A stretch of DNA of 64,000 bases. Source: Candidatus Omnitrophota bacterium (lineage in GTDB: Bacteria > Omnitrophota > Gorgyraeia > Duberdicusellales > 4484-171). Below the pieces are notes generated by a model. That model searched no databases, was not told the origin of the DNA, and was given only the letters and a program-made list of their open reading frames with translations. The translations under genes and the position numbers were made by a program. Below, piece after piece: positions 1 through 21,733 of this stretch. The stretch's first letter is position 1. Each line of letters opens with the position of its first letter. The stretch is from assembly GCA_024231025.1 (NCBI GenBank), contig JAAEQW010000341.1, forward strand, positions 54,155 through 118,154. The letters are read 5' to 3'.

Positions 1-37
1 TTGAAGATATTTTTGAAAATTGAAGACTTTTTGAACA
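1..37. repeat. 37-bp direct repeat, copy 1 (identical to 8453..8489); candidate island boundary
   Basis: Exact identity of TTGAAGATATTTTTGAAAATTGAAGACTTTTTGAACA at 1..37 and 8453..8489; the repeat may extend left of the window edge. Confidence 0.8.
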
Positions 38-223
38 CCTTAATATAACAATATACTGAAATCCAAAATTCGTCCGTGTCAATAATTAAGTATTGTGTCC
101 CCGGAATTTGCAGAGCTTGAATGGCGCAAGAAACAAAAAGTAACGCTTAAGCTTTCAGGGAAAAAAATTATCATTGAGGATTGGAAAAGATAAATAGCAA
201 AACTTTTGTTACGCAATACGCTT

Positions 224-1129
224 TTATCTTTTGCATTTAGGATTAAACGATGGACGATATTGAGACTCTCTTGCCGAGCTATGTTTTGGCCTATTGCCAG
301 CACTTCCCTGTGACTCTAGATTTATAGGAAACGACGTTACCAACAATTCTGTAAAACGTGATCGCTTGTTTGGATCTCCGGCGATTAAACTAGGTCTTTC
401 TATTTCTGTCTTAAAGAAAACTCCATCATACTGTTGTTTTATCAAAGGATGAGCAGCGTTGCTAACCATCACTTTTGCTCCTCTTCTCGCTAATTTTTCT
501 GCCAATTTCGCCAACCTCAACTCATCAGAATGTTGGAAAAGCACAGAATTATACTCAGCAAAACCATTATTTATGTGCGTTGTTATGTAGGGGGGGTCAA
601 AATAAATAAAATCTGTCCTTCGTCTTGAGTCCTTAACAGCTTCTTCAAAATCACAACACTTGAGCTTGGCTCTTTTCAAAAGGCGACTCGCTTTTAATAA
701 TTGATCTGCATCAAATACTCGACTATTCTCTGATGAGCTTCTCCCTATAGGAACATTGAACTTACCACTCTTATTCACTCTGTACAAGCCATTCCAGCAT
801 GTTTTATTAATGTAAATAAAATAAGCTGCTTTTTTTATACGGTCTCTTTCTGTGTTAAACTTTTCTCTAATTAAGTAATATGTGTCTTTGTCACCTTTTA
901 TACGCTTAAGAATTTTTATAATTGATGGGCAGTTATTTTTTACCTGACGATAACAATTGATTAGATCTGGATTCATATCTGCTAGAATCGCTGCTTTAGG
1001 TTCTAAAAGAAAAAAAAGGGCTCCGCTACCCAAAAATGGCTCATAGTAGGTACTAAATGTTGGAATATTATTCCTTATTCTGGGGATGAGCCACCTTTTT
1101 CCGCCTGCCCATTTTAAAAATGGATTCAT
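224..1129 (-). CDS. Dam-family (D12 class) N6-adenine DNA methyltransferase
   Basis: N-terminal FLKWAGGK motif, FxGxG-like AdoMet loop (EPFLGSGALFF), catalytic DPPY (FIYFDPPYITTH); last gene of a co-directional 5-gene operon. Confidence 0.85.
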   Translation of the reverse strand: MNPFLKWAGGKRWLIPRIRNNIPTFSTYYEPFLGSGALFFLLEPKAAILADMNPDLINCYRQVKNNCPSIIKILKRIKGDKDTYYLIREKFNTERDRIKKAAYFIYINKTCWNGLYRVNKSGKFNVPIGRSSSENSRVFDADQLLKASRLLKRAKLKCCDFEEAVKDSRRRTDFIYFDPPYITTHINNGFAEYNSVLFQHSDELRLAKLAEKLARRGAKVMVSNAAHPLIKQQYDGVFFKTEIERPSLIAGDPNKRSRFTELLVTSFPINLESQGSAGNRPKHSSARESQYRPSFNPKCKR

Positions 1130-1133
1130 ATAG

Positions 1134-2018
1134 TTACAATCCTATGCTTAGTTTCTGCCTAACCTTAAAATCTTTCACTAAAGCTTCCGACTGAATAGAT
1201 GAAATCATATCAGACAATTGAGCGAAGGCTTCTGCCGATATCAATCTACGAAGTCTTGCCCGTTCGATGTCATTCGCTTTTGACAATAGACCTTTAAAAC
1301 AATTATATAAATAAATAAAACTCTCATCAGTAGATTCAGATTCTTCGGGGCCAAGCTTTTTATACAACTTAAAGTTATTTTTCGTTGTTAAAGATAGGCA
1401 CATATTCGAAAAAGATCTCGTTTCTATCATTTGGACAGAGCTTCTGAAAATATCCCTATTATCTCTATCTAAATCTTTGAATAAATGTATCAATTTGTCT
1501 TGCAACTCTCTAAAGTATTTTATAACTTCTTCAAATTTTTGCAAATGTTTTGACTTGTCTAAAGACTTACCTAAGCGACCATGCGAGTATTTTGTTTTAA
1601 GACTTAGTAAATATTCAGTAAAGTTTTTCCCGCTAAACTTACGAGCATTTTCATAAATTTCTATCAGCTCTCTATCCGACAACTTACCTCTAACTTCTTG
1701 TTTAGGGTCTATAAAAGGTAGCATTTCTATCAAAGAACTAACCCTTTTTAATTCGCCAACATCGCGCATCATGTCATCTTTTTTGCCCCATATTTGTCGT
1801 ATTTTATAAGCTCGAAAAATAGTAGGCCTTTTTATCAATCCTTTTGTTTCTTTTTGGATTTTCCACCCCATAGAGTGAGGCTTCTTCACCCCCAACTCCT
1901 TAAGGCAGTTCCCTATTTCCCATAGAGCTTCCAGCCTTAACTTCACTTCAGTGTGAGAGTCTCTATACAAATTGTTTAGATCGGTAATTGAATTAATTAT
2001 TTTACTTAAAATAGCCAT
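1134..2018 (-). CDS. hypothetical protein (294 aa), no recognisable motif; possible nuclease/effector partner of the adjacent MTase
   Basis: Long ORF, 4-nt spacing to Dam gene and 14-nt to GHKL gene; function unknown. Confidence 0.5.
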   Translation of the reverse strand: MAILSKIINSITDLNNLYRDSHTEVKLRLEALWEIGNCLKELGVKKPHSMGWKIQKETKGLIKRPTIFRAYKIRQIWGKKDDMMRDVGELKRVSSLIEMLPFIDPKQEVRGKLSDRELIEIYENARKFSGKNFTEYLLSLKTKYSHGRLGKSLDKSKHLQKFEEVIKYFRELQDKLIHLFKDLDRDNRDIFRSSVQMIETRSFSNMCLSLTTKNNFKLYKKLGPEESESTDESFIYLYNCFKGLLSKANDIERARLRRLISAEAFAQLSDMISSIQSEALVKDFKVRQKLSIGL

Positions 2019-2032
2019 TTTTTGCCGTTCTT

Positions 2033-3706
2033 CTATCCTATATCCATTTCCTCACCGAGAAGAGTTCCCACTAACACATTCTCTACTTTCAGGCTCAAAT
2101 TTACCACATTGTCTGCCACCTCTGAAACTGAAGGGACTCTGCCTCTTTTCTCAAATAGCCTGTGCACACAATAGGGGCTAATAATTTGAGAAACGTAACT
2201 TAAAAGCCTTACATCAAACTTAACACGTCCAGTTTTATTTACATTTCGTGAAATAAAATCGGGATGCTGAGTATTGACAATAAGCGAATTTCCTAAGTCA
2301 ATAACTCTATCTTCACCTGCATGGTTTTGAAATTCAATTTTAGGTCCAGGAGAAGTGATAACTTTTTCATTTGAAGATCCTGAAGTAGAAGAAGCTTGTC
2401 CCGCACCGGAACCACCACTTGTATTCGAATCACCAGGACCGCTCTGTCCCGCATCAGAAATGGAACCACCAGAACCTGTACCATTCGCCCCTTCACCACC
2501 GCCACCTGGTACATCTTCTCCACCAAAAGGCACATCACCATCTTGAGAATTAGGCTTTTCATTGTAAGTTCCTGGTTCACCAGAAGGAACTAGTTGCTCA
2601 AACTCTAATTTGAACTTCTGAAGTATCTGCGATAGGCAATCAGACATAATTTTGCTTATTTTTTTAAATGATTCTTGCGTTTTCTTGTTCATAGCATCGT
2701 CAATCAAAATCTTGAGATCTGTCTGCACTTCACGTAATATTTCATAAAGTTTTTCTCTATTAACAGAATCTTTCAAATCATCTCGCGTTAAATTTGGTGA
2801 ACAAACGTTATTGATCTCTATAGATCCCACCACAAACGGATTCGTCCAAACATAACTAATATCGCCATGCAATCGTAGATAGTTCTTAAAGCTTTTTAAG
2901 TCAGATATACTTTGAATGCGACGTCTTTTGTTCGTTAGTACCGGCAAACGATTCTCCTGGGCTTTATCAAGAACTTTTAAATCCACCTCGACAGAAATTC
3001 CCGATTCATCATTATCAAAATTCACCGAACGCTTTAATTCTGGTCCGACAAGTTTGCTGTAATCAAAATATTTACATTCGTAATGCTTCTTACCTTTTTC
3101 ATTAATAAAGATTCTTATCCTTTTAGCACGTAACACATCATCAAAATGATGCTCAATCTCTCCTGCAAGCGCAATAGCAAAACTACTTTTCTTAAAAACA
3201 TGTGGATCAAAACGAGAAATTGTAACACGCGTTCCACAATCAGTTAATTCATTTTTACTGTTTTCATAACAATGCACATCCTTTCTTTCATCAACTGTAC
3301 GATCAATTTTTATCACGGCTTCTTTGCACCCTTTTTTCCTACTTATAAACACGGCATCTTTAGCGAAGGCCCTAAAAGCATGGACCCCAAACCCAAACTG
3401 ACCATTAGCCCAAGCAACTGCCTTTTTCCTCGAACGCCCCACACTGGAAAGCAATTCGCACAATTCATCAGGTGCCATACCAGCGCAATTGTCGGTAAAA
3501 CTGACTGTTTTCTTGTCGGCATCTATGTGTATTTCGATGCGTGGAACCATTCGCTTACTTTGAAACTCCGGCATAGAGGCGGCATCTATAGAATTATCTA
3601 TATACTCCATAGCTGCTCGATAAAAGTCCTTATACGTTCCTGAAATCTGATTAATTAATTCATTTTGATCCCTAATTTGCAAACGTGTCTTCGCTATAGT
3701 TTTCAT
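2033..3706 (-). CDS. GHKL (Bergerat-fold) ATPase, MORC/MutL-like, with long Gly/Ser/Asp-rich linker and C-terminal domain
   Basis: N-box EYIDNSIDA, G1 box FTDNCAGM, G2 box GQFGFG within first ~110 aa; low-complexity GGGEGANGTGSGGS... linker; 4-nt overlap with upstream gene. Confidence 0.7.
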   Translation of the reverse strand: MKTIAKTRLQIRDQNELINQISGTYKDFYRAAMEYIDNSIDAASMPEFQSKRMVPRIEIHIDADKKTVSFTDNCAGMAPDELCELLSSVGRSRKKAVAWANGQFGFGVHAFRAFAKDAVFISRKKGCKEAVIKIDRTVDERKDVHCYENSKNELTDCGTRVTISRFDPHVFKKSSFAIALAGEIEHHFDDVLRAKRIRIFINEKGKKHYECKYFDYSKLVGPELKRSVNFDNDESGISVEVDLKVLDKAQENRLPVLTNKRRRIQSISDLKSFKNYLRLHGDISYVWTNPFVVGSIEINNVCSPNLTRDDLKDSVNREKLYEILREVQTDLKILIDDAMNKKTQESFKKISKIMSDCLSQILQKFKLEFEQLVPSGEPGTYNEKPNSQDGDVPFGGEDVPGGGGEGANGTGSGGSISDAGQSGPGDSNTSGGSGAGQASSTSGSSNEKVITSPGPKIEFQNHAGEDRVIDLGNSLIVNTQHPDFISRNVNKTGRVKFDVRLLSYVSQIISPYCVHRLFEKRGRVPSVSEVADNVVNLSLKVENVLVGTLLGEEMDIG

Positions 3707-5061
3707 ATTTTACATCCTCCTTTTATTATTCGATAACGAGTTTGGCTACCCTCGCCTTCCCTAATCACTTCACCTGTAGCCATCAATAGCTTAATCAATA
3801 CATAGGCTCTGCCAGGATTTAAGCGCGCATGTGTTGCTAGCTCGCGCGTCTGTAGACTACCGAATTCAGTTAGTACATCACGTATACAGTCTAGATCTTG
3901 CATTCTCTTAATGCAAGCGATTCTAGATCTATGTTCTATCCATGGTCTAACAGATTCAATGAAAGTAGGAGAAGCAGGTATATTTAATTCCTTTCTAAAG
4001 CTATCAATTGACCCCCAACACCTTCTAATGCTAGCTTCCAGATAACGCCATTTCCGATTAGACTGCAACACTGCAGTATTTGGATTATACCCAATTTCAT
4101 CCTTGATCTTTAGGTATGCTTTAATAATGTCTCTTTTTTTTCGAGATAAAAGTAATAACTCAATATCTTCATTTTTTATTTGATGTACAATTAGCAATCT
4201 TTTTACGTAATTTGAAGATACATTATTTGCCTTAGCCACTTTAGACAATGCTTTCAAGCGATAAAAGTCTTTAAGCAATTTTTGTTTGGATATGTATGGA
4301 TATTCATTCCCTCTATATTTGAACAATTTATATTTTGTACCTTTAACGAGAATCTGACGAATTCTTTGTCTGCTCAACTTTACGATTTTTCCAACATATT
4401 CTAAAGTCCCTCCTTCATTATAAAGATCAAAGCATTTTTTATAAAAAGTAATCCTGTCTGGAGAAAGAGCACTCCCTGCCGCTTCATTGATAATTCGTAA
4501 AGTGCCCGGATATTTAATTCTTAGGTTGCTTATCGCTACACCAGGTTTGCTAGATCCTTTTATTTTTTTATCTATCTCGGATTTCCAACCTATGGGCAAT
4601 CTCATGTTAAGGGACAAATCAATCTTAACCAATAAATTAGATATTTCCAACAATGTTCTCGTGCCGCTATTTTTTTCGCTTGCGATTAACTCTTCAGAAA
4701 GACACACCAAATCGAATAAAAAACTAGACCCTAATTTTTCTAGGATATTTCTTGCGCGCGCCGATAGTGGAATATCCAACAAAGGAATACACAAAACATA
4801 TGTTAAATACTCCAAACGCTCCTTTTTTTCTTGGTTTGTCAATCCATTCCCCTCTAAAGCAAAATTCCGTTGATTCAGTTTGAAATAATTGAAATAATCT
4901 ATTATTTCATTCACAGTTTTTACGCCTAAATTTGGTATAGATAATAACTCTCGCCTACTCAGCCTCATGCACTGAGTTTCAGTTTCAAAACCCTGTTCTC
5001 TTAAAGCATTTTTAGCCCTTACCGACAAGGACATTCTGCGCAGTTTTTTCTTTTTCCTCAT
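3703..5061 (-). CDS. multi-HTH DNA-binding protein with two RNAP alpha-CTD-like helix-hairpin-helix modules and a sigma70 region-4-like HTH
   Basis: Two segments resembling RpoA CTD (LSVRAKNALREQGFETETQCMRLSRRELLSIPNLGVKTVNEI and LSARARNILEKLGSSFLFDLVCLSEELIASEKNSGTRTLLEI), VGKIVKLSRQRIRQIL sigma r4.2-like HTH, C-terminal wHTH-like segment. Confidence 0.5.
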   Translation of the reverse strand: MRKKKKLRRMSLSVRAKNALREQGFETETQCMRLSRRELLSIPNLGVKTVNEIIDYFNYFKLNQRNFALEGNGLTNQEKKERLEYLTYVLCIPLLDIPLSARARNILEKLGSSFLFDLVCLSEELIASEKNSGTRTLLEISNLLVKIDLSLNMRLPIGWKSEIDKKIKGSSKPGVAISNLRIKYPGTLRIINEAAGSALSPDRITFYKKCFDLYNEGGTLEYVGKIVKLSRQRIRQILVKGTKYKLFKYRGNEYPYISKQKLLKDFYRLKALSKVAKANNVSSNYVKRLLIVHQIKNEDIELLLLSRKKRDIIKAYLKIKDEIGYNPNTAVLQSNRKWRYLEASIRRCWGSIDSFRKELNIPASPTFIESVRPWIEHRSRIACIKRMQDLDCIRDVLTEFGSLQTRELATHARLNPGRAYVLIKLLMATGEVIREGEGSQTRYRIIKGGCKI

Positions 5062-5279
5062 AATTTAAATTTCTTATGCTTTGGGAAACGAAATCTAGCT
5101 TTAGCCTCACGAATTTTCGAATCAATAGCAGAAAATATCTTCACTATGTCAGATTGAGAATATTCATAAACACTTCTGTTAGAGCAATTTCCCAAAATTT
5201 TAAGCTTTTTTAATACTTCATTTGTTCTCTTTTCTGCCAATTTTCTAAAGCGTTCAGCCTTTTCACTATTTTTATCCAT
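5058..5279 (-). CDS. small 73-aa protein, paralog of 11033..11254; first gene of the operon, possible regulator
   Basis: ~40% identity to the 73-aa ORF at 11033..11254 (shared ERF+++A.KR.N...L.IL.NCS.R..Y.FS....K.F.AID...AK..F); 4-nt overlap with downstream gene. Confidence 0.5.
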   Translation of the reverse strand: MDKNSEKAERFRKLAEKRTNEVLKKLKILGNCSNRSVYEYSQSDIVKIFSAIDSKIREAKARFRFPKHKKFKL

Positions 5280-5559
5280 AACATCTCCTTGATAAATAAC
5301 ATGTTTTTTTAGTAAATAAATGGCTTATTTACTAAATAATACCATTATTCTCTAAAAAAGTCAAGTAAGCCGCTATAATTGCGAAAATGCTAGGATGTCC
5401 CTCCCTCGGCAAGCGCAGTCGTCCGGCTTCATCTGCCAGGGGCAGATTCCGCAGCGTTCTTTGTGCGCTTGCCTCACCCTCCGATATAAGGTAGCCAATC
5501 CTAAACGCCCACCGCGGCCAGAAGAATATTTTCCGGATTAAAAACGAAATTTTTCGATA

Positions 5560-5946
5560 CATTAAAAGCCCGACGAAGGTGGGTGGCTAAGGCAGGCTAA
5601 AGAACCTTACGAATTCACCAACCAAGGTGGTTTTGCAGGCTCTTAGCGCAGGTGCTGTAGTGCCCTAGCACGAAAGCCCGAGCACAGAGACTGCTTGAAT
5701 AAGCGAGCGCCAAGCGAGTGGCCAAGCGAAGCCCCCGGCCCCAGCCGGGGCGAGCGGATCTTTCGCCACCCACCTAGCCCCGCCCTAGCGGGGCGGCACA
5801 GGTATCAGATTAAAGGTTTTGCTTTCTGCATTGGCGAATGGTATTCGGAATCACAATAGTGAAGAAATAATTCGAATCTAACCTGAATGGGGAGCCAAAG
5901 TCTTCTTTTCGAAATTCGTCCCGCCCAAAAGGCGGGACTTTTTCTT
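5560..5946 (+). ncRNA. candidate structured RNA of unknown class (GC-rich, multi-hairpin, ends in a terminator)
   Basis: Local GC ~60-70% versus ~35% background; long-range pairing GGTGGGTGG (5583)/CCACCCACC (5771); hairpins GCCCCGC-CUA-GCGGGGC and CCCCGGC-CCCA-GCCGGGG; no convincing ORF; 3' terminator hairpin. Confidence 0.25.
5917..5946 (+). terminator. rho-independent terminator (GTCCCGCC-caaaag-GGCGGGAC then TTTTTCTTTTT)
   Basis: 8-bp GC stem plus T-run read directly from sequence. Confidence 0.6.
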
Positions 5947-6301
5947 TTTCCCCAGCGCGCGCGGAATCCGAATAAAATAGATTCATTTGGATTGATTTTG
6001 TTGAATAGATGATCGATTGAAAGAATTTTTTTGCCAGAAGATTTCTTTGGATTCCACGGGAAGAAAAAAGGGATTTTCGGACGAGGTCAAGGGTTTGTGA
6101 CCGGAGGCTACTGCCGTAGGAAATGCCGAGAACATTCCAAATTTATATTATTCAGACAGCGACGGCCTATGCGGCCGCCATTCCGATAAATGCCTACGTC
6201 ATTTATCGGCTAAATACCCCACCCTTTAAGGTAGCCCAACGATATCTTGAAGTTCCCCGTAGATTTTAAAATTAACTCTATCTAAAAAATAACCCCTAAC
6301 A

Positions 6302-7150
6302 TTACTGCTTTGCTAAACCCACTAACCCATCAAAATCAATTATTTTATCGGAACCACCAAAAACATCTTTAGCCAATTCTTTTAACCCCAAATCGTTACT
6401 AACCAAATAATCCAAATCTGTTAAATAAATAAGGTAATATTGATCGTAATGGTCGCCTTCCCTTACTCCCCTCCCTAAAACAACATATCTATAAAATAAA
6501 GCCATAAAAACTCTAGAGCTAGTAGAAAAATAAGGATAACGCCTGGGGGTATCAGTAATTTTATTTGTTTTCTCATCAGAAACAGATTTTCCTGCTCTTA
6601 AAAATAAGTATCGAATTAAATCTCTTCTCATATTCATTATTGTTTTATCATTGTAGAATTCATCAAAACTCATCTTGGGAACTGTTATTTTCTCATCTTT
6701 GAATTTATTAAAAATGCGCTTTTGAGTTGCTTTGTATTTTTTATAATTATCTTCCTTTTCCTGCTTAACGAGATTCAATATTTCTTCTATATTCTTTGGT
6801 TTTCGACCATTCGCTAAGGCTCCAAAAATGCTTTTAGCATACTCCGTTTCTTTAGAACCCAAAAAGATACTTTCATTTTCAAGTAGACCAAGGTCATGCC
6901 TAATTATTCTACTCCAATAATTAAAAATCCTATAATCTACCATACTTAGTAATATTTTGGAATACCTAATGAGTAAAGGTTTCCGCCGGGTGGAATAAAT
7001 ACCTAAAAGTTCAGCCAGTACTTCGGGGGTAGGATAAAACGAAAAGTATTTTCGTCTGAATGCAGAAATTATGAGTTTCTTGTCTTCCTGAATCGGATGT
7101 TTATCATAATTATCAAAAAAGTTGTTGTCGACCGTAATCTTTATTCCCAT
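6302..7150 (-). CDS. hypothetical protein (282 aa)
   Basis: Long ORF in island A; no recognisable motif. Confidence 0.5.
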   Translation of the reverse strand: MGIKITVDNNFFDNYDKHPIQEDKKLIISAFRRKYFSFYPTPEVLAELLGIYSTRRKPLLIRYSKILLSMVDYRIFNYWSRIIRHDLGLLENESIFLGSKETEYAKSIFGALANGRKPKNIEEILNLVKQEKEDNYKKYKATQKRIFNKFKDEKITVPKMSFDEFYNDKTIMNMRRDLIRYLFLRAGKSVSDEKTNKITDTPRRYPYFSTSSRVFMALFYRYVVLGRGVREGDHYDQYYLIYLTDLDYLVSNDLGLKELAKDVFGGSDKIIDFDGLVGLAKQ

Positions 7151-7220
7151 ATACTATTCGCAAAAACCTCATGTTTCTTTAAATATTCCGATGATTACGT
7201 CGTGCCTTGCACCTAATCCG

Positions 7221-7886
7221 TTATTTTATCCCCAATTCTAGCACACCATACGGTGAGGACGTTATATTGCTAAAATTAACTGCATCATTTTCGAAACTCA
7301 CGTGTTTTGTTCGCAACCAACAGTCGCCAATCTTATATTCTATATCAAGGCTTAAAGCATAAGGCAATTTAGGAAAAGTATTTTGGAAATCCTTTTTGGG
7401 CATAAAAACAACATAAGCAGACTTAGCGCTTCTTTTTTCTATGGTAACGCCATTAAAAACGTCTGGGGTGATATTCGCGCTCTGCTTGGATATGATTTGC
7501 AACTTATCGGCTTCTCGTCTCGCATAAAACTTACCAATTTCTTTATCGTTAGCATGAATCGTTATCCTCATATCTTCTATGATACCACCGATTGCATTAT
7601 TATTAACTATGGATAACTTCGTATTCACAATGGGAAGCATGAAAGACTGACCCTTTGTTGTAAATGCAGAAGTCGCTAAAAAGATAGCCCTACCTATATT
7701 TATTCTTGGATAAAAAGGAGTAAGGAAAGAAAACCATAGAGTTGAAATTAACGCAACCAAACTTACAAAAACTTCAATTCTTATCTTTTGGGCAACCAAC
7801 AAATAGATCATCCAAGCTATCAACAAAAGCAATAGAATAGTTTTAAGATTAAAAATATAAATTCTTGCAAATGAAATGCAATTCAT
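7221..7886 (-). CDS. hypothetical membrane protein (2 N-terminal TM helices)
   Basis: Hydrophobic stretches ILLLLLIAWMIYLLVA and FVSLVALISTLWFSFL; follows an XRE regulator gene. Confidence 0.5.
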   Translation of the reverse strand: MNCISFARIYIFNLKTILLLLLIAWMIYLLVAQKIRIEVFVSLVALISTLWFSFLTPFYPRINIGRAIFLATSAFTTKGQSFMLPIVNTKLSIVNNNAIGGIIEDMRITIHANDKEIGKFYARREADKLQIISKQSANITPDVFNGVTIEKRSAKSAYVVFMPKKDFQNTFPKLPYALSLDIEYKIGDCWLRTKHVSFENDAVNFSNITSSPYGVLELGIK

Positions 7887-7937
7887 AATTTCCCCCTTCT
7901 TTCTTACTCAAAAGATTTTATCAACGGCTTACTAATT

Positions 7938-8147
7938 TTAAATTCGTTTCGTTCCTCGCCCCGTTAATTTGTCTATACTAACCCCCAAAGCATCTGCCAA
8001 CTTAATAACCGTCTCAATCTTAGGATTTTTAATTCCACCTCGTTCAATTTTTATAATGGTATTATAAGAAATTTCTGATTCTACAGCGAGCTTTTCTTGA
8101 GACCATCCTTTTTGCTTGCGAAGTTTGACTAAATTCTTCAGATACAT
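7938..8147 (-). CDS. XRE-family (Cro/cI-type) HTH transcriptional regulator
   Basis: LRKQKGWSQEKLAVESEISYNTIIKIERG...IETVIKLADALGVSIDKL is the canonical HTH_3 pattern. Confidence 0.75.
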   Translation of the reverse strand: MYLKNLVKLRKQKGWSQEKLAVESEISYNTIIKIERGGIKNPKIETVIKLADALGVSIDKLTGRGTKRI

Positions 8148-8452
8148 ATTGTTTGACTCCTTGGTAGTATTGTGATACAGTATTGCAATACTATATTGGA
8201 TTACCCCGTATTGCTTTATTCTGAGCTATTTTAACTCGTTTCTTAATAAAATCAAGGAGATATATGTATAACTTCAATTTCTACCGCCAAAGCATAAAAT
8301 TGGGAGCAATAATTGCTTTGATTATATTGGTGATACAGATAATTTCCCTTGCGAGATAACGGGAGGGGGCAAGCCCCTCCCCTACAAAACAAAATAATAA
8401 TCAATGGATCGGGCGTAAAAAAATCCCCCATCCTTTTGGATGGGGGCGATTC

Positions 8453-8489
8453 TTGAAGATATTTTTGAAAATTGAAGACTTTTTGAACA
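8453..8489. repeat. 37-bp direct repeat, copy 2 (identical to 1..37)
   Basis: Exact match to window start; preceded by GC hairpins at 8361..8385 and 8424..8446. Confidence 0.8.
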
Positions 8490-8590
8490 TTTGAGCATTT
8501 GAGCATTGGACCGCATTGCCCCATTGGATTTTCCAATGTTCTAATGATCCAATGTTCCAATGCTCTAGCCATTTTTTTCGATGAAAAAAT

Positions 8591-8607
8591 TGGCTCCCCG
8601 GGTAGGG
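8591..8607. repeat. 17-nt duplicate of the tRNA-Asn 3' end (candidate att site of integrated island B)
   Basis: TGGCTCCCCGGGTAGGG here is identical to 20812..20828 (reverse complement of the last 17 nt of the tRNA including CCA); lies ~150 bp from the serine recombinase gene end. Confidence 0.65.
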
Positions 8608-8720
8608 GCAGAAATTACCTTAATAAAAACAATGGGAATATTTCTGCACTTCCTCGGGCAGTAGCCCTCGGTCGCTCAACAGCTGCCTTCGGCAGAGTTC
8701 GAGACCAAACGGGGACATAT

Positions 8721-8762
8721 AAAATAAAAATCCCCCGCAAAATGCGGGGGATATTTTATTCA
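8721..8762 (-). terminator. rho-independent terminator downstream of serine recombinase gene (probably bidirectional)
   Basis: CCCCCGC-aaaat-GCGGGGG stem flanked by A/T runs on both sides. Confidence 0.6.
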
Positions 8763-10369
8763 TGGCTCCCCGAAGAAACTTCAGGAACAATATCTCCCCG
8801 GAGCACCTGAGTAATATCGCTTCTAAACCTTTTAGACACTATACCAACTTGAACCTTGTCATTTCCTATCTTGATGTGTTGTAAAATCCAATTCAGAATA
8901 AACCTTTTCTGATAAAGTTTAAGGTGATCTTTAAATATCTCATCGAAAGAGCCAAGTAACCGCTTAACATCACCCTCCTCTAAAGACTGTACCTTTACGG
9001 CATTGATCTCACGATTAAGATGATCTATATTATCCATCATCTTTCTACGCCTATCATCCAATTCAGATAGCTTTTGCTCCACGAATGTCCTGCCTTTATC
9101 GATATTCATAAGATTATCCATAACTTTCTTGGCTTTAGCATTCACACTTTCAAGCTCAACGGCAAACACGCGTTTTTGCTCTTTAAGGCTGGGCAGTTGC
9201 CTGCTGAATTTCTCGTTTAGCTTTTCAGTAATCTTATGGAGCATAAGAGGAGTAGAGACGGCTGATTGCGTAAGGCGTTGAACGGCTAATTCGAGTTCCC
9301 GCTCCGGAACCTTAAATTTACACTCATCATTTGTACAGTAATAATAATAGTAAACTTTTCCGCTCTTGCCGTGCCCATTTCTTCCTTCCATTCTTGCACC
9401 ACATTGATGACAGCAAAGCACACCATTAAATATATACGTGTGTTTTGTAGGCTTTGCGCCATTATTCCGATGTTTGTAATTTTCTTTCAAGAGTTGTTGG
9501 GTTTTTTGGAACTTGCTCTCGTCGATAATAGCCGGCCAAACAGCCTTGCAAGTTGAATATCTCATTTTTTCCGGCAAAGATTCTTGTTTTTCAGCTTTAC
9601 GTTTTTTATTGATCTCTTTCATCCCAATATACGCCTTGTTGCTTAAAATCTTCAATATTGAACTATAGCAAAATTTCTTTGCCGGATGATATCTGTCACG
9701 ACGGGAGGTGTACTCTTTTGATAAGTAACCTTTTTTATTTGCTATTATAGCAGTTCTGACAACTGAACCGTTTTCAAGATAGGTATCAAATAGGAAACTT
9801 ACAACTTTAGCCTCCTTTTTATTAGGGATGAGATAACCTTTTTTGTTTTTATCTTCATCATATCCCAACAAAGGAACACCGCCATTAAATAACCCTCGTT
9901 GAGCTCGCGCATAAAGCCCTGAGATTGTTCGCTCGGAACATTGCTCTCGTTCAAATTGGTTTAATGCTCCCATTATCGTAAGGAAACATTTGCCCTGCGA
10001 CGTTGTTGTGTCAAACTGTTCCTTCAGGCAAACAAAATCTACTTTATTTTTATTGAAATAATCAACCATATCCAAAAGATCCCTTGTTGAACGGCTTATC
10101 CTCGACAAAGCAACGCACAGAACAGCATTGATCTTACCATCCTGTATGTCAGACATCATTCTAAGATACTCTGGGCGATTTGTATTCTTAGCAGAAATAC
10201 CTCGATCTACGTATGTGTCTACAATCACCCATTTCTGTTTAGTTGAGCTTGATTTCATCCTGACGTAATCTCGAAGCATCTGTTCTTGATTCTTGAGAGA
10301 CCCTTCTTCCAATTTCGCCTGCTTCTCAGTACTCACGCGTTGATAAAGGCTACATCTTTTTATTTCCAT
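8756..10369 (-). CDS. large serine recombinase (serine integrase type)
   Basis: N-terminal resolvase catalytic domain (YQRVSTEKQ with catalytic Ser, VALSRISR), recombinase domain, Cys-rich zinc-ribbon region (CCHQCGARMEGRNGH...YYYYYC) and C-terminal coiled coil; 537 aa. Confidence 0.85.
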   Translation of the reverse strand: MEIKRCSLYQRVSTEKQAKLEEGSLKNQEQMLRDYVRMKSSSTKQKWVIVDTYVDRGISAKNTNRPEYLRMMSDIQDGKINAVLCVALSRISRSTRDLLDMVDYFNKNKVDFVCLKEQFDTTTSQGKCFLTIMGALNQFEREQCSERTISGLYARAQRGLFNGGVPLLGYDEDKNKKGYLIPNKKEAKVVSFLFDTYLENGSVVRTAIIANKKGYLSKEYTSRRDRYHPAKKFCYSSILKILSNKAYIGMKEINKKRKAEKQESLPEKMRYSTCKAVWPAIIDESKFQKTQQLLKENYKHRNNGAKPTKHTYIFNGVLCCHQCGARMEGRNGHGKSGKVYYYYYCTNDECKFKVPERELELAVQRLTQSAVSTPLMLHKITEKLNEKFSRQLPSLKEQKRVFAVELESVNAKAKKVMDNLMNIDKGRTFVEQKLSELDDRRRKMMDNIDHLNREINAVKVQSLEEGDVKRLLGSFDEIFKDHLKLYQKRFILNWILQHIKIGNDKVQVGIVSKRFRSDITQVLRGDIVPEVSSGSHE

Positions 10370-11395: not shown

Positions 11396-11475
11396 TTAGC
11401 AAAAAAGGTAAAATCCTTTACTCGGTTAAAAACCACCCTACATTTGAATGTAGACGAATTAGACAGCTATTCTGT
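11396..11475. repeat. ~75-nt repeated intergenic element, copy a (hairpin GGTAAA-n4-TTTACC plus CTACATT-TGA-AATGTAG palindrome)
   Basis: Shares AAAAGGTAAAATyCTTTACy...CTACATTT.AAT..AGACGAATTAGA.AGCTA.TC with copies at 12205..12280 and 18655..18715. Confidence 0.6.
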
Positions 11476-11541
11476 TATTCTTTTACGATCACACCCCTCT
11501 TTATCATTTATCTTAAAGCCATGCTGTGATAAAATGACATC

Positions 11542-12186
11542 ATGATTGATTATAACTGGATCTTCAGTGCATTGGTCCAATCCTTAGCCGCAATGATTGG
11601 GGTAATAGGCATGTTTGCGGTATATAGATTGCAAACACAAGAAAAAATAATCGAGAAGAAATTTGAAAAGTTTCGTATATTCTTAGAAGAAAATACAGGA
11701 ACGAAGATAGATAATCCTACGGAAGAAAGAATTATTGAAAAAGCCAAAGGTGTTAGACAGAAATACCAAAAAATCATTAACGATTCCCCAAATAACCTTA
11801 ATGTTATGAAAAATACACAAGGATTCACCGATAGTGCAATGGAACAAGCATCAAGCATAGCCGATGTGGGGATAGAAATATTTAAAAAACATACCATAGA
11901 TATTGATAACTTTAATGCATCTATAGAGCAACATAAAAATAAAAATAAAGATATATCTAAACAAGCTTTAGATATAGTAGGTCAACTAGTTTTTCTGTTT
12001 GGTTTAAGCGTGTTAGTGCTTATATTTAGTAAAGTACTTACTGTGACAAATACTGAGTTGTTTGAACCGGGAACAATGACAGTAGTATACGGAGGGCTTG
12101 TTGTTCTAACTATAGTCTCTATTTATCTTGTCATTTTGTTGCGTACTATATATGTTTTCTGCAACACCTGTTTTTCTGTTAAGTAA
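11542..12186 (+). CDS. hypothetical membrane protein (214 aa)
   Basis: N-terminal TM (IFSALVQSLAAMIGVIGMFAVY) and two C-terminal TM segments; flanked by repeat copies a and b. Confidence 0.5.
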   Translation: MIDYNWIFSALVQSLAAMIGVIGMFAVYRLQTQEKIIEKKFEKFRIFLEENTGTKIDNPTEERIIEKAKGVRQKYQKIINDSPNNLNVMKNTQGFTDSAMEQASSIADVGIEIFKKHTIDIDNFNASIEQHKNKNKDISKQALDIVGQLVFLFGLSVLVLIFSKVLTVTNTELFEPGTMTVVYGGLVVLTIVSIYLVILLRTIYVFCNTCFSVK

Positions 12187-12204
12187 CTGATTTTAAAATA
12201 GACT

Positions 12205-12280
12205 TAAAAGGTAAAATTCTTTACCCTATCAAAAGCTACTCTACATTTAAATACAGACGAATTAGAAAGCTACTCCTATC
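12205..12280. repeat. repeated intergenic element, copy b
   Basis: See 11396..11475. Confidence 0.6.
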
Positions 12281-13053
12281 TTCTTTTGTGCTTTGAGGAA
12301 TAATCGCTTTGAGACAATGGGCGGGTGTGTTCCTTGGACATGAAAATTACCAAAGCTGGTTTCACCATAATACATCTTATTTCTTAAAACATACTTTAAA
12401 GATTGAATCTGAAATTGTTTACCTCGTTTAGTGGTTGCTCGTAACTTATTAAGCTTACGAACAATGGTTGTATATTTATGTCCCTTAACTAGCCACCTAA
12501 ATATTCTGACTACGTTCTTAGCTTCAGTTGGTTTAATCTCGAGCTTCTTGCCAACCTTAACATAACCAAAAGGTATCGGTCCAGACCCACGTTCACCGTT
12601 CTTAGCGTTATTAATTCTCCCGTCTTTAAGGCGGGCAGTAATAACGTCCTTTTCTAATTCAGCAAAAACATCAGCAATACGCTTAAAAGCTTTCTGTAAA
12701 GGGTCATCTAGATTATATTCTGGGTCTACTACAGAATTAATCTCGATGTCATGTTTCTTGAATTGTGTCTCAAGCCAAAGAGATACAGTCAACTCGCGAC
12801 TCAACCTATCTTGTTTGTAAACAATGACATTATCAATAAGACCATCTTCGCAATCCTTTAATAGTCGCAACAAACCCGGCCTTTCTTTTATCGCACCACT
12901 AATACCCTTATCTTCATAAAATCTGTTAAGCTCCAGATTCTTATCCTTACAATATGCCTCAATCTTATCTCTCTGGATTTCTAATCCTTCGCCGTTTTCG
13001 ACTTGATTAGCAGTTGATACTCTGAGATACCCTACATTATATCTAGATTGCAT
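12262..13053 (-). CDS. serine recombinase (resolvase/invertase-type catalytic domain plus recombinase domain, 263 aa)
   Basis: GYLRVSTANQ catalytic motif, VYKQDRLSRE; shorter than the 537-aa integrase (no zinc ribbon or coiled coil). Confidence 0.8.
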   Translation of the reverse strand: MQSRYNVGYLRVSTANQVENGEGLEIQRDKIEAYCKDKNLELNRFYEDKGISGAIKERPGLLRLLKDCEDGLIDNVIVYKQDRLSRELTVSLWLETQFKKHDIEINSVVDPEYNLDDPLQKAFKRIADVFAELEKDVITARLKDGRINNAKNGERGSGPIPFGYVKVGKKLEIKPTEAKNVVRIFRWLVKGHKYTTIVRKLNKLRATTKRGKQFQIQSLKYVLRNKMYYGETSFGNFHVQGTHPPIVSKRLFLKAQKKIGVAF

Positions 13054-13221: not shown

Positions 13222-14406
13222 TTAGTTCTTGCCGATAACGTATTTTTTAAAATAGTTCTTAGTACCTCCGAAGTACGTTTTAACCCTAGCAATACCAAAA
13301 AAATCATAATATCGCTTAGTAGTGGATCCATCCTGTGCTATGTCTCGTTTTTTAGCATATCGTGCATAAAATGGCTTGTCTTTTGGAGATAGAACGACAT
13401 CAATGCATGCGCTTGGTCGTATCGCCCGTCTAAGAAGCGTTCTTAGGTGATAGTCGGCTTCTGGCAAAGAATACCCCACAAAAACAACCCTATCCGCTGT
13501 GGCTAATTCTGCGTAAGCATTATACCATACTGTCCTTATATGAATATTATCAAAATTCTTTTCAAAGGTCGGCGTAATAATATACGGTTGCAAGACGTGT
13601 TTGTTCTTTTTTCTTCTTACTGTGTGCCCTAGACAATGCTTACAAAAACTATCTTGCACGTACAGTTTTCGCCCCTCATTTGCCCCTAACCCTGTATACA
13701 TCCTGTTACAGTTGGGACAAAAAAGCCAATTAATGGAGCCATGTAGTTTAAGAATTTTTATTCTGTTTTTTTCCTCTTGATTAACAGGCGGAATGGCTAT
13801 CCCGTCACAATCTTCCTTTAGTCGCAAAATGCAACAACAAAAATCTGTGCTGATTTGTTGCTTTTTGTTTTTTGTTTTCTTGGTAATTTTATACACAGAG
13901 TCTTCTAGCAAAGAGTCCCAATTCAAAGATATTACGCTGAGCCTATTTCCTCTTGACCGTTTTTTTATCGTCTCTTTAACAAAATGACTTGCTAAAGAAT
14001 CATAAAATTTATCACCGGTAGTTTCTGAACGTAAAGAAGCTTCATGGAATACAGTTAAAATAAGCCGTTTCAAATCGTCTCTAATACTGTCTAACTCTTT
14101 CCAAGAATAATCAAAACAATTACGTCGTTGCGCTATGGTTTGATCTAGCAATGTAAATAAGTCTTCTAGACTAGGTAGGGCGTTGGGATAAAATATCTGA
14201 TCAATAAATTCTCTGAGCTCTTTTCTCCGAACAAGACTTTCGCCATACAATATATCAAACTTTTGGGAAAAAACTTTAGTTAAAATGAGTCGCTGCAAGG
14301 GAAACCCCGCACCATACGAGAATCCTGCTCCGAATACATAAACTGTCTTGGTAGGTAGGGCTGTTCTCACTTCAGTTTGAAATGTTGGTTTAGCACCTTG
14401 GCCCAT
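13222..14406 (-). CDS. SIR2_2-family sirtuin-like protein (defence-type SIR2)
   Basis: N-terminal Gly-rich NAD loop VYVFGAGFSYGAGFP, LHGS motif (KLHGSINW), zinc ribbon CPNCN...CKHC, Rossmann strand VVFVGYSLPEADYHL. Confidence 0.7.
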   Translation of the reverse strand: MGQGAKPTFQTEVRTALPTKTVYVFGAGFSYGAGFPLQRLILTKVFSQKFDILYGESLVRRKELREFIDQIFYPNALPSLEDLFTLLDQTIAQRRNCFDYSWKELDSIRDDLKRLILTVFHEASLRSETTGDKFYDSLASHFVKETIKKRSRGNRLSVISLNWDSLLEDSVYKITKKTKNKKQQISTDFCCCILRLKEDCDGIAIPPVNQEEKNRIKILKLHGSINWLFCPNCNRMYTGLGANEGRKLYVQDSFCKHCLGHTVRRKKNKHVLQPYIITPTFEKNFDNIHIRTVWYNAYAELATADRVVFVGYSLPEADYHLRTLLRRAIRPSACIDVVLSPKDKPFYARYAKKRDIAQDGSTTKRYYDFFGIARVKTYFGGTKNYFKKYVIGKN

Positions 14407-15788: not shown

Positions 15789-16138
15789 ATTTCTCTAGAG
15801 CGTGGTGCTGATATAACCTCTTCAAATGGCCACCGTCCGTCCTCGCGATAAAACTTAAGACCAACTCCTGCTGATTTGAGGGCTCTCCTCATTTCTTGCG
15901 TAATTTTGCGCTTGGGCATACACACGTAAGAAAAGTCTGCTCCTAATTTATGGTCGTATGATTGTCGTATCGCTCTGCGCCAATTGAAAAGCTTAAACTC
16001 TATGGCAACAACTGTATTATTTTCAATATAAACTAGATCCGCAAACCTCCCCAACACAGGAACCTCACGGCACACATCCATTGAGAAATGTTGCGTCAAT
16101 CGTTTATAAGCACTATCCACAAGGGTTCGTTCACACAT
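15719..16138 (-). CDS. small PD-(D/E)xK-fold nuclease-like protein
   Basis: GRFADLVYIEN...VVAIEFKL gives a D...ExK motif in a beta-strand context; 139 aa; the overlap with the upstream ORF suggests an internal start. Confidence 0.5.
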   Translation of the reverse strand: MCERTLVDSAYKRLTQHFSMDVCREVPVLGRFADLVYIENNTVVAIEFKLFNWRRAIRQSYDHKLGADFSYVCMPKRKITQEMRRALKSAGVGLKFYREDGRWPFEEVISAPRSREIWRVGKTWIKKYIQKNKQDVQEA

Positions 16139-16724: not shown

Positions 16725-16891
16725 GTTTCCCTTTGCATGTTCTTGCCTCTATTTTTATTATAAATCCGTTTCCGGCATAATCAAGAACTTCTTGGCCCGG
16801 CATTTTCGCTGTTTTTGATCTCCACACTACACCTTATATAACAAAGGGTTTGTTTTATTGACACCTGTTTCATTCTTACTATAATAAAGCC

Positions 16892-17701: not shown

Positions 17702-17826
17702 AGGCATATGTCTGAGCGCAATAAGACGTATTAACTACTCCTGCCACGGGTTAAAATTCAGCTATCAAAGTAATGGTACAAGTATCCATAAACCCATTAC
17801 CCTGATGTTCCGTATTTACAAAATAC

Positions 17827-18000
17827 TTATACAGATCCTCTCAAAAGCAAGTCAAACACGCAAATAACTGTTACAATTATTGTAATAATCGCGAGAAGTT
17901 TCACAACGATGCCTTCTTTTCGGTCTCCCGACCTTGTCAAAAACGAAATCATTCTCGTAGTCACATAAAACCCTATCATCATCCCGATTGATGGTATCAT
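17827..18000 (-). CDS. unannotated small hydrophobic protein (57 aa), possible type I toxin or holin-like peptide
   Basis: ATG at 18000 preceded by AGGAGG 6 nt upstream; translation MIPSIGMMIGFYVTTRMISFLTRSGDRKEGIVVKLLAIITIIVTVICVFDLLLRGSV; not in the ORF track (<60 aa). Confidence 0.4.
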   Translation of the reverse strand: MIPSIGMMIGFYVTTRMISFLTRSGDRKEGIVVKLLAIITIIVTVICVFDLLLRGSV

Positions 18001-20811: not shown

Positions 20812-21232
20812 CTGGCTCCCCGGGTAGGGCTCGAACCTACGACCTATTGGTTACAGTTACCCTCTAAGTTTCCTTAAAGACTGGACTATATCATTACCGT
20901 CCCGCCATGGGCGGGATACGGTATCAGGCGCTTCGACCCCGAAATTTCGGGGGCTACTCCCTCGCGGGATAGTCTCTGCACGTTCTCCGAATAATCGGAG
21001 CTTCGCTCAGGATTGCCATATTCTTACGAACTTAGGTTTCCCTGAATTCACCTGATTCTTCACTCTACAGTTTCCTGTAGAGGCTGCCATGCACCGAGAT
21101 CCTTCGACTCAGTCGACCTAAGGTCTCCTTCACTCAGGATCAATTCGGCTATATAATTTTTCTGCCGTTTTTGGCCTGAAAAATTATAGTCTCATTGACA
21201 GCCAACCGCTCTACCAATTGAGCTACCGGGGA
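20812..21232 (-). tRNA. tRNA-Asn(GUU) interrupted by a 345-nt group I intron in the anticodon loop (exons 21198..21232 and 20812..20852); CCA encoded
   Basis: 5' exon UCCCCGGUAGCUCAAUUGGUAGAGCGGUUGGCUGU and 3' exon UAACCAAUAGGUCGUAGGUUCGAGCCCUACCCGGGGAGCCA fold as a standard cloverleaf (U8, A14, G18G19, TTCGAGC T-loop; anticodon loop CU-GUU-AA). The splice follows U35 and the intron ends with G. Confidence 0.75.
20853..21197 (-). ncRNA. group I self-splicing intron within the tRNA
   Basis: Intron contains R-like element GUGCAGAGACUAUCC (plus 20965..20980 as reverse complement) and S-like element GAUAUAGUCC (plus 20882..20891), which can form P7 GACUA/UAGUC. Candidate IGS GCAG pairs with exon end CUGU (U.G at the splice site). 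No intron ORF. Confidence 0.65.
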
Positions 21233-21730: not shown

Positions 21731-21733
21731 ATG

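What the first reader, a model, noticed from the sequence alone, without database searches (positions are those of the whole stretch)
1..8489. Second island delimited by an exact 37-bp direct repeat (1..37 and 8453..8489), in tandem with the tRNA-integrated element
The 37-bp repeat is not tRNA-derived and brackets ~8.4 kb. That stretch contains the GHKL/Dam operon, a GC-rich ncRNA-like segment, an XRE regulator and unknown genes, but no recombinase of its own within the window. Either the recombinase lies left of the window, or the element is mobilised in trans by the adjacent serine integrase. Between the right-hand repeat and the tRNA-derived att there are short tandem motifs (ATTTGAGC x2; CCAATGTTC/CCAATGCTC x3) that could be recombinase or RDF binding sites. 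The repeat starts exactly at the window edge and may be longer.
Basis: seen in the sequence. Interest (0 to 1): 0.5.

Follow-up and report, generated by a model that had tools for sequence, protein, structure and literature searches.

The report
Repeat-flanked mosaic of integrase-borne cassettes
The 37-base repeat is real, but the 8.4 kb it brackets is a patchwork of two cargo modules from serine-integrase elements stacked behind an intron-split tRNA-Asn gene. The repeat is probably the cut-off tip of a longer repeated attachment block, not the two ends of one self-contained island.

Summary
TTGAAGATATTTTTGAAAATTGAAGACTTTTTGAACA occurs exactly twice, at 1-37 and 8453-8489, where chance predicts none. 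The left copy is cut by the window edge, so 37 bp is a minimum length.

The window comes from a Candidatus Omnitrophota MAG chromosome. Its tRNA-Asn(GUU) is split by a group I intron, which is why ARAGORN finds no tRNA. In this phylum that tRNA is a hot spot for large-serine-recombinase (LSR) elements.

Downstream of it, copies of the tRNA 3' end (GGGGAGCC), each followed by a trailer and a hairpin, mark module borders at 20814, 8764 and 8592 (direct) and at 5889 (inverted).

The bracketed stretch therefore holds two modules:
- an XRE module
- a conserved 73aa/alphaCTD/GHKL/294aa/Dam cassette

They are separated by an inverted att-like block and a conserved structured RNA that Rfam does not contain. 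No recombinase lies inside.

The right 37-mer sits in an att-type block, and its reverse complement resembles the tRNA-Asn trailer. My best reading (about 0.45) is that the repeat belongs to a repeated att block of an LSR accretion array and continues left of the window. A discrete island mobilised in trans remains possible (about 0.25).

The parts
1..37 (+). Left copy of the 37-mer, cut by the window edge
8453..8489 (+). Right copy of the 37-mer. On the minus strand it reads as a trailer-like sequence (AAAGTCTTCAATTTTCAAAA) directly upstream of a terminator
224..1129 (-). D12-class Dam DNA adenine methyltransferase, last gene of the cassette
   Evidence: Pfam 5e-55; PADLOC MTase_II
1134..2018 (-). 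294-aa protein with no family match. It is conserved after the GHKL gene in all cassette relatives
2033..3706 (-). GHKL (HATPase_c_3) ATPase. It is 100% identical to the NCBI protein GY858_09460 from a Candidatus Omnitrophica MAG
3703..5061 (-). Protein with two RNA-polymerase alpha-CTD-like repeats and a sigma-70 region-4-like helix-turn-helix
5058..5279 (-). 73-aa first gene of the cassette, conserved in L068 and L070-L072
5558..5806 (+). It belongs to a family of at least 12 members and has no Rfam match
5860..5897 (+). Block d: a pseudo T-arm plus GGGGAGCCA, a tRNA-Asn 3' end copy inverted relative to the real tRNA
5918..5938 (+). Terminator hairpin (T1) after block d
5960..6060 (+). AT-rich array of about 100 nt, conserved in L032 (two copies), L016 and L008
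6099..6129 (+). Motif X, inverted partner of 8643-8673 (81% complementary). This is the longest inverted repeat in 1-8800
6302..7150 (-). 282-aa cargo protein (GY858_09475). Its relatives lie in defence-island contexts
7221..7886 (-). 221-aa protein with no family match
7938..8147 (-). XRE-type HTH regulator, 70% identical to the XRE gene beside the serine recombinase in L032
8264..8359 (+). 31-aa hydrophobic ORF with an AGGAG ribosome-binding site (type I toxin-like; not tested)
   Evidence: read
8425..8446 (-). Intrinsic terminator on the minus strand, directly after the right 37-mer. Its CAAAAG loop is the same as in T1
8490..8590 (.). Array of short tandem motifs (TTTGAGCA x2, CCAATGYTC x3) plus an AT hairpin, between the 37-mer and block c
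8591..8613 (-). Block c: a tRNA-Asn 3' fragment that matches the tRNA at 20 of 23 positions
8643..8772 (-). Block b: GGGGAGCCA overlapping the recombinase stop codon, then a terminator (8730-8752) and motif X
8756..10369 (-). Large serine recombinase, 537 aa, with Resolvase, Recombinase and Zn-ribbon domains. It resembles CcrB and XisF
20813..21232 (-). tRNA-Asn(GUU) split by a 344-nt group I intron: 5' exon 21232-21198, 3' exon 20853-20813

Best explanation
Proposal. The 37-mer is a piece of a repeated attachment block, not the private att core of one island.

Shown:
- The window is an Omnitrophota chromosome.
- Elements with large serine recombinases (LSRs) have piled up downstream of an intron-split tRNA-Asn.
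- Module borders are marked by copies of the tRNA 3' end (GGGGAGCC), each followed by a short trailer and a hairpin.
- The stretch between the two 37-mers holds two such modules. They are separated by an inverted block and a conserved structured RNA.

Inferred:
- The right 37-mer is the trailer part of one such block (block c, with about 100 nt of short repeats inserted).
- The left 37-mer is the start of another copy of that block.
- The identity continues left of the window. Related elements carry long, perfectly identical repeats at the same kind of junction, and assemblies break there.

How it would work (inferred). Recombination between repeated blocks, by the LSR or by homologous recombination, inverts, duplicates or loops out modules. 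The two direct copies here would release an 8,452-bp circle. That circle would carry an attP-like block and the RNA but no recombinase.
For: Source and hot spot:
- The source is an Omnitrophota MAG.
- tRNA-Asn follows recR in relatives. An LSR gene lies tail-to-tail with it in L021, L050, L017, L002, L032, L006, L027 and L068.

Blocks and modules in the window:
- Four GGGGAGCC copies, each with a trailer and a hairpin.
- The inverted pair 6099-6129 / 8643-8673 frames the XRE module.
- Block d is homologous to blocks in L032, L016 and L008.
- The GHKL cassette is a separate unit found in many contexts. In L068 it sits next to an LSR at tRNA-Asn.

The 37-mer itself:
- Its reverse complement matches the block d trailer, AAAGTCTTC..TTTTCRAAA, with 1 of 5000 shuffles as good.
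- Both are followed by a terminator with a CAAAAG loop.

Long identical repeats in relatives:
- 219 bp at 100% identity in L032.
- At least 64 bp in L087, which ends inside the repeat.
- L085 and L090 are bounded by inverted copies.

A repeat that begins exactly at window base 1 is far more likely if it is longer than 37 bp (inference).
Against: - The left flank cannot be read, so the extension of the repeat is not shown.
- The similarity of the 37-mer to the trailer is short. Three unrelated places in the window score as high, so it counts only because of its position.
- The long repeats in relatives are inverted, whereas this pair is direct.
- No relative carries the 37-mer.
- No GGGGAGCC copy precedes the left 37-mer.
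Confidence: 0.45

Rival explanations
1. Bases 38-8489 form a discrete, non-autonomous island whose attL and attR share the 37-bp core. A recombinase encoded elsewhere excises it: the neighbouring serine integrase, or an enzyme left of the window. The window or contig may start where a circle junction or tandem copy re-enters the unit.
For: - The direct repeat is exact, with none expected by chance.
- It lies in an att-type context 100 nt from a tRNA-end copy and 270 nt from the integrase gene.
- The unit carries an attP-like block plus the RNA that accompanies LSRs elsewhere.
- SCC-type arrays show that cassettes lacking a recombinase can be moved by a neighbour's serine recombinase (established knowledge; the LSR resembles CcrB).
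Against: - Serine integrases use a 2-bp crossover within sites of about 40-50 bp, and do not generate 37-bp repeats (established knowledge).
- The 37-mer has no GGGGAGCC core in common with the sites that flank the integrase element.
- The unit is a mosaic of two modules.
- No tyrosine recombinase is present.
- GC content does not differ from the rest of the window.
- No empty site is available.
Confidence: 0.25
2. Assembly effect. The genome has only one copy of the 37-mer region. The copy at base 1 is a contig-end overlap or a wrong turn of the assembler in a repeat-rich, polymorphic region.
For: - The repeat starts at base 1 of the window.
- The source contig is 119,650 nt, so a 64-kb tile may well start at a contig end.
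- Contigs of related elements end inside their repeats: L087, L085 and L090.
- L082 and L087 show alternative joins at a repeat.
Against: - 37 nt does not match the k-1 overlap of commonly used assembler settings (my knowledge).
- The same contig reads through the second copy without breaking.
- Whether window base 1 is contig base 1 is unknown.
Confidence: 0.12
3. A duplicated piece of intergenic regulatory or terminator-proximal sequence, unrelated to mobility. It would be like the other exact 37-bp repeat that sits upstream of recR and of the next gene.
For: - A second exact 37-bp direct repeat (24280-24316 and 25156-25192), also made of two tandem units, brackets the housekeeping gene recR.
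- Intergenic regions here are rich in AT-rich tandem motifs.
- The right 37-mer is immediately followed by a minus-strand terminator, so it could be the 3' part of a small transcript.
Against: - No promoter-like site was found at or next to the 37-mer.
- The 18-nt unit is not dispersed.
- The repeat coincides with module borders in a mobile-element array.
Confidence: 0.1

Closest known systems
SCCmec-type composite islands (Ccr large serine recombinases; tandem cassettes at the 3' end of rlmH/orfX)
   Same: - Large serine recombinase (closest NCBIfam model CcrB at 3e-50, below that model's cut-off).
- One chromosomal hot spot.
- Cassettes stacked in tandem, some without a recombinase.
- A short repeated core at each border (here GGGGAGCC).
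- Defence and methylase cargo.
   Different: - The target is a tRNA-Asn 3' end, not rlmH.
- One border block is inverted.
- The 37-mer is not the shared core.
- A conserved structured RNA lies next to the block.
- The host phylum is Omnitrophota.
- Excision was not tested.
CIME/ICE accretion and tandem genomic islands at tRNA genes (tyrosine integrases)
   Same: An att-flanked segment without recombination genes lies next to an element that has them. The idea of mobilisation by the neighbour is the same.
   Different: In those arrays all att copies share the same core, and a tyrosine integrase acts on it. Here the 37-mer occurs only twice, differs from the tRNA-end repeats, and no tyrosine recombinase was found.
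Serine-recombinase DNA inversion systems (Hin/Gin type) and recombinase-flanking inverted repeats
   Same: Related loci have perfectly identical inverted repeats around a segment that contains the serine recombinase (L032, L087). Both orientations were assembled (L082 and L087). The window has a degenerate inverted pair around the XRE module.
   Different: - The enzymes here are large serine recombinases, not small invertases.
- The repeats are 64 to 219 bp or longer and include a tRNA end and a terminator.
- The apparent inversion could be an assembler artefact.
- The 37-mer pair is direct, not inverted.
IS110 bridge RNA / IS1111 seekRNA (element-end non-coding RNAs that work with a recombinase)
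   Same: A conserved structured RNA is encoded at an element end next to the recombination site. Its variable 3' part contains target-like sequence.
   Different: This is a conceptual analogy only. The recombinase class is different (serine, not DEDD), there is no sequence or Rfam similarity, no pairing to target or donor was demonstrated, and an LSR is not always nearby.

Membership tests
Genomic island bounded by att direct repeats (integrase-type, autonomous or CIME-like) | Direct repeats at both ends | tested here: met
   Exact 37-mer at 1-37 and 8453-8489. The left copy is censored by the window edge.
Genomic island bounded by att direct repeats (integrase-type, autonomous or CIME-like) | A recombinase inside the element, or a helper element that uses the same att core | tested here: not met
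   No recombinase in 38-8452. The neighbouring element is bounded by GGGGAGCC copies, not by the 37-mer. No third 37-mer copy exists.
Genomic island bounded by att direct repeats (integrase-type, autonomous or CIME-like) | An empty site with a single repeat copy in related genomes or reads | not testable with these tools
   The 37-mer is absent from the viral, genome and metagenome collections and from all fetched loci. The closest RecR relative is only 72% identical. No reads are available.
Genomic island bounded by att direct repeats (integrase-type, autonomous or CIME-like) | One coherent unit between the repeats | tested here: not met
   Two modules are separated by an inverted att-like block and an RNA. 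The modules occur separately elsewhere. There is no GC contrast apart from the RNA.
Large-serine-recombinase integrative element / SCC-like array | Recombinase with a catalytic-serine resolvase domain, a recombinase domain and a zinc ribbon | tested here: met
   8756-10369: PF00239, PF07508 and PF13408, with the YQRVST motif. It lies outside the bracket.
Large-serine-recombinase integrative element / SCC-like array | A short shared core at the junctions, repeated at each cassette border | tested here: met
   GGGGAGCC at 20814, 8764, 8592 and 5889. This holds for the array, not for the 37-mer.
Large-serine-recombinase integrative element / SCC-like array | The 37-mer junctions resemble the recombinase's att sites | tested here: inconclusive
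   The reverse complement of the 37-mer matches the block d trailer (SW 24, 1 of 5000 shuffles), but three unrelated places in the window score at least 24. There is no GGGGAGCC at the left copy.
Large-serine-recombinase integrative element / SCC-like array | Excision or integration activity at these sites | not testable with these tools
   Needs reads, PCR or a recombination assay.
Contig-end or assembly repeat | The repeat copy lies at the physical end of the assembled sequence | not testable with these tools
   The source contig (119,650 nt) could not be retrieved. The locus tags give orientation only.
Known RNA family (Rfam 15) for the GC-rich segment | A match to a curated covariance model | tested here: not met
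   No match at the gathering score or at E up to 10 over 5558-5806 or over its L082 homologue.

The most novel reading that the evidence does not exclude
The conserved structured RNA (5558-5806) runs on through a target-like tRNA-Asn end to a terminator. It may work together with the large serine recombinases of these elements, for example by helping to choose or regulate the recombination site. The repeated att blocks, including the 37-mer copies, would then be the sites at which recombinase-less defence cassettes such as the GHKL/Dam unit are exchanged, inverted or excised.
Probability: 0.08. Interest if true: 0.85.

Novelty: new variant of a known kind. Interest (0 to 1): 0.38.

Why it matters
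The repeat-bounded 'island' on its own is ordinary: accessory DNA stacked at a tRNA hot spot.

What the follow-up adds:
- In Omnitrophota, an uncultured phylum, an intron-split tRNA-Asn is a recurrent landing site for serine-integrase elements carrying defence-type cargo.
- The borders of these elements are composite blocks: tRNA end, trailer, terminator and an AT-rich array.
- An undescribed, covariation-supported RNA family sits at these borders.

If the repeated blocks are the places where modules are exchanged, this would be an SCC-like cassette system in a very different lineage. If the RNA takes part in recombination, that would be new for serine recombinases.

Tried and rejected
Searches that found nothing:
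- Exact 37-mer in the viral, genome and metagenome collections.
- Retrieving the source contig by exact protein look-up of Dam, the integrase and GHKL, so the left flank could not be read.
- The 37-mer, its flanks (1-200, 8361-8620) and the 18-nt unit in 65 recR loci and in the window.
- Rfam, for the GC-rich segment and for 8400-8800. Only sub-threshold terminator-like hits came back.
- Literature searches for an RNA linked to serine recombinases and for tRNA-Asn introns in bacteria.

Ideas tested and dropped:
- A hidden recombinase among the unknown proteins (Pfam, PADLOC, NCBIfam).
- A degraded integrase gene under the GC-rich segment (tblastn).
- Terminal inverted repeats at the ends of the bracketed stretch.
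- A promoter at the 37-mer.
- The 13-bp inverted match GTAGGGGCAGAAA (8600-8612 and 20745-20757) as P/P' half-sites of the integrase. I could not derive a consistent central dinucleotide, so I left this open.
- Similarity between the AT-rich array next to the 37-mer and the arrays of relatives. It is not significant as sequence and is only a positional analogy.
- Relatives of the 282-aa cargo protein. They gave defence-island contexts but no 37-mer.

One PHROGs call failed because I gave wrong coordinates for the small ORF.
Full report
OBSERVATION

The sequence TTGAAGATATTTTTGAAAATTGAAGACTTTTTGAACA stands at 1-37 and at 8453-8489 on the + strand. With up to three mismatches allowed these are the only two matches in the window, against none in 100 shuffles. 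To the right the copies diverge at once. To the left the first copy is cut by the window edge, so 37 bp is a lower bound.

The 37-mer consists of two tandem units of about 18 nt (TTGAAGAnnTTTTTGAA). That unit is not dispersed in the window. All ORFs of 65 aa or more in 1-8489 were scanned, and none is a recombinase.

WHERE THE WINDOW COMES FROM

The window carries recR, dnaX, trkA/trkH and other housekeeping genes. The closest RecR relatives (at most 72% identical) are nearly all Candidatus Omnitrophota MAGs. The GHKL protein and the 282-aa protein are identical to NCBI proteins GY858_09460 and GY858_09475 of a Candidatus Omnitrophica MAG, on a contig of 119,650 nt. That contig could not be retrieved. 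I therefore cannot say whether window base 1 is also the contig end.

THE tRNA AND THE INTEGRASE HOT SPOT

ARAGORN finds no tRNA in the window. Rfam does find a group I intron at 20862-21106 on the minus strand (101 bits). Reading the flanks gives a tRNA-Asn(GUU) with these parts:
- 5' exon 21232-21198
- intron of 344 nt
- 3' exon 20853-20813

The spliced sequence is called tRNA-Asn(gtt) by ARAGORN.

In relatives this tRNA follows recR directly, with or without the intron. In L021, L050, L017, L002, L032, L006 and L027 a large serine recombinase (LSR) gene lies tail-to-tail right after it. L068 has the same arrangement. tRNA-Asn is therefore a recurrent landing site for LSR elements in this lineage.

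MAP OF THE LEFT 21 KB

Copies of the tRNA 3' end (GGGGAGCC) occur at four places:
- a: 20814, the tRNA itself
- b: 8764, overlapping the stop codon of the LSR gene 8756-10369
- c: 8592, matching the tRNA at 20 of 23 positions
- d: 5889, inverted

Each is followed by a short AT-rich trailer and a hairpin.

Block d continues with a terminator (5918-5938), an AT-rich array of about 100 nt and a motif X. It is homologous to blocks in L032 (two copies, a 219-bp inverted repeat at 100% identity), L016 and L008. Motif X (6099-6129) has an inverted partner at 8643-8673 inside block b. This pair is the longest inverted repeat in 1-8800.

Read from the tRNA on the minus strand, the order is:
1. tRNA (a)
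2. a 12-kb element with SIR2-like, PolA-like and LSR genes
3. block b
4. block c
5. an AT hairpin and short tandem motifs
6. the right 37-mer and a terminator (8446-8425)
7. a small hydrophobic ORF
8. XRE, the 221-aa gene and the 282-aa gene
9. inverted block d
10. a structured RNA
11. the cassette: 73-aa, alphaCTD, GHKL, 294-aa and Dam genes
12. 190 nt of spacer
13. the left 37-mer

WHAT LIES BETWEEN THE 37-MERS

The stretch is not one unit.

The XRE module has the same layout as in L032 and L008: a tRNA or tRNA fragment, with or without an LSR, then XRE, cargo genes and an inverted d-type block. The XRE protein is 70% identical to that of L032.

The cassette (73-aa, alphaCTD, GHKL and 294-aa genes, with Dam or another methylase) is a separate, widespread unit. 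At least 147 relatives were found, lying next to restriction-modification systems, Thoeris, Mrr and similar genes. In L068 it sits directly beside an LSR at an intron-split tRNA-Asn.

It is a member of a conserved RNA family:
- at least 12 homologues in metagenomes and MAGs
- a consensus structure of 36 pairs with 94.9% of cells paired
- 9 pairs with changes on both sides
- 0 of 500 shuffles as good, and slid controls at 45.6% paired or less
- invariant G-U pairs that place it on the + strand
- no Rfam match

Its neighbours elsewhere are LSRs and defence cargo, such as a Gabija-like pair in L087 and type I restriction-modification in L088.

WHAT THE 37-MER IS

On the minus strand the right copy reads TGTTCAAAAAGTCTTCAATTTTCAAAAATATCTTCAA and is followed directly by an intrinsic terminator. 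Its core matches the trailer after GGGGAGCCA in block d (AAAGTCTTC..TTTTCGAAA). The local alignment scores 24, against 11.5 +/- 2.1 in shuffles, with 1 of 5000 as high. A weaker match exists to the tRNA-Asn trailer of L011. Both terminators have a CAAAAG loop.

Three unrelated places in the window score as high, so this similarity counts only because of its position.

I read block c plus the motifs plus the 37-mer plus the terminator as a d-type block with about 100 nt of short repeats inserted between the tRNA end and the trailer.

No relative contains the 37-mer. A second exact 37-bp direct repeat, also built of two tandem units, brackets recR. Such repeats alone therefore do not identify islands in this genome.

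THE WINDOW EDGE

A repeat that begins exactly at base 1 is very unlikely if the repeat is truly 37 bp and the cut is arbitrary. It is expected in either of two cases: the repeat is longer and the cut falls inside it, or the window starts at a contig end created by the repeat.

Related elements show both phenomena:
- repeats of 219 bp (L032) and at least 64 bp (L087) at 100% identity, at the junction next to the block
- contigs that end inside such repeats (L087, L085, L090)
- alternative joins at the repeat in L082 versus L087

The alternative joins may be real inversion or a wrong turn of the assembler.

MECHANISM

Best reading (0.45). The 37-mer copies are parts of two att-type blocks in an accretion array of LSR elements, and the identity continues to the left. 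Recombination between repeated blocks shuffles modules. The direct pair would release an 8,452-bp circle with an attP-like block and the RNA but no recombinase.

What is shown:
- the array and the blocks
- the mosaic content of the bracketed stretch
- the absence of a recombinase inside it
- the behaviour of relatives

What is inferred:
- the extension of the repeat
- the block identity of the 37-mer
- any recombination at it

Rivals:
- A discrete island with a 37-bp core, moved in trans (0.25).
- An assembly effect (0.12).
- A duplicated regulatory or terminator-proximal sequence (0.10).

Against trans-mobilisation by the neighbouring LSR: serine integrases act on sites of about 40-50 bp with a 2-bp crossover and do not create 37-bp repeats (established knowledge). 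The 37-mer also lacks the GGGGAGCC core.

COMPARISON AND NOVELTY

The closest known analogue is the SCCmec-type composite island: an LSR of the Ccr type, one hot spot, and stacked cassettes, some without a recombinase. CIME/ICE accretion is the analogue for tyrosine integrases. The defining feature of both, the same core at every border, is met here by GGGGAGCC and not by the 37-mer.

The case is a new variant of a known kind. The repeat-bounded 'island' itself is ordinary. The structured RNA at the element borders and the composite att blocks are the parts worth following.

Noticed in passing
window 20813-21232 (-): tRNA-Asn(GUU) interrupted in the anticodon loop by a 344-nt group I intron, which makes it invisible to ARAGORN. 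The same intron position recurs in many Omnitrophota relatives (for example L001, L016, L017, L020 and L023). L011 (10692-11168) and L068 (169-480) have an HNH endonuclease ORF inside the intron. My literature search found no report of tRNA-Asn introns in bacteria.
   Followed up: partly
window 5558-5806 (+), running on to the terminator at 5918-5945: Undescribed structured RNA family with at least 12 members in JGI metagenomes and MAGs. It has 36 pairs, 9 with compensatory changes, hairpin insertions of variable length, and no Rfam hit. A target-like end follows (the tRNA-Asn 3' end in the window, L008 and L091), then a terminator and an AT-rich array. It is often within 3 kb of a large serine recombinase.
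   Followed up: partly
L082 10051-14212 versus L087 9046-14887; L032 4650-4868 / 7933-8151; L085 and L090 contig ends: Perfectly identical inverted repeats flank segments that contain the serine recombinase. The Gabija-like segment (OLD/UvrD with the LSR) appears in both orientations next to the RNA block in two contigs that are otherwise 100% identical. This is either real inversion or an assembler wrong turn at the repeat.
   Followed up: partly
window 24280-24316 and 25156-25192: A second exact 37-bp direct repeat (51 nt at 88%), made of two tandem CAAGATACAAATYA units. One copy is just upstream of recR and the other just upstream of the next gene (23912-24289). It looks like a duplicated upstream region.
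   Followed up: partly
window 21300-24543: In relatives tRNA-Asn follows recR within about 100 nt. Here 3.2 kb lies between them, carrying a HEPN/nucleotidyltransferase pair (21320-22363) and three unknown genes.
   Followed up: no
window 224-5279 (-); L066-L072: Conserved cassette of a 71-73-aa protein, a protein with two RNA-polymerase alpha-CTD repeats, a GHKL ATPase and a 294-295-aa unknown, with Dam or another methylase. At least 147 relatives were found, next to restriction-modification systems, Thoeris and Mrr. PADLOC has no matching system, so this is a candidate methylation-linked defence or epigenetic system.
   Followed up: partly
window 8264-8359 (+): 31-aa hydrophobic ORF (MYNFNFYRQSIKLGAIIALIILVIQIISLAR) with an AGGAG ribosome-binding site. 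It converges on a minus-strand terminator, a layout like that of type I toxin-antitoxin loci.
   Followed up: no
window 8756-8772 (-): The stop codon of the serine recombinase lies inside a copy of the tRNA-Asn 3' end (CGGGGAGCCATGA). In L068 and L032 the recombinase ORF runs antisense into the tRNA gene itself.
   Followed up: partly
window 11403-13053: An 82-nt direct repeat (11403-11484 and 12206-12287, 79%) flanks an ORF (11542-12186). It abuts a truncated second serine recombinase of 263 aa (12262-13053).
   Followed up: no
window 13222-19920: Cargo of the 12-kb integrase element includes a SIR2_2-domain protein (13222-14406) and a short family-A DNA polymerase of 392 aa (18742-19920).
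   Followed up: no
window 43665-63908 (-): A single ORF of 6,747 aa with internal Gly/Ala-rich repeats and raised GC content.
   Followed up: no
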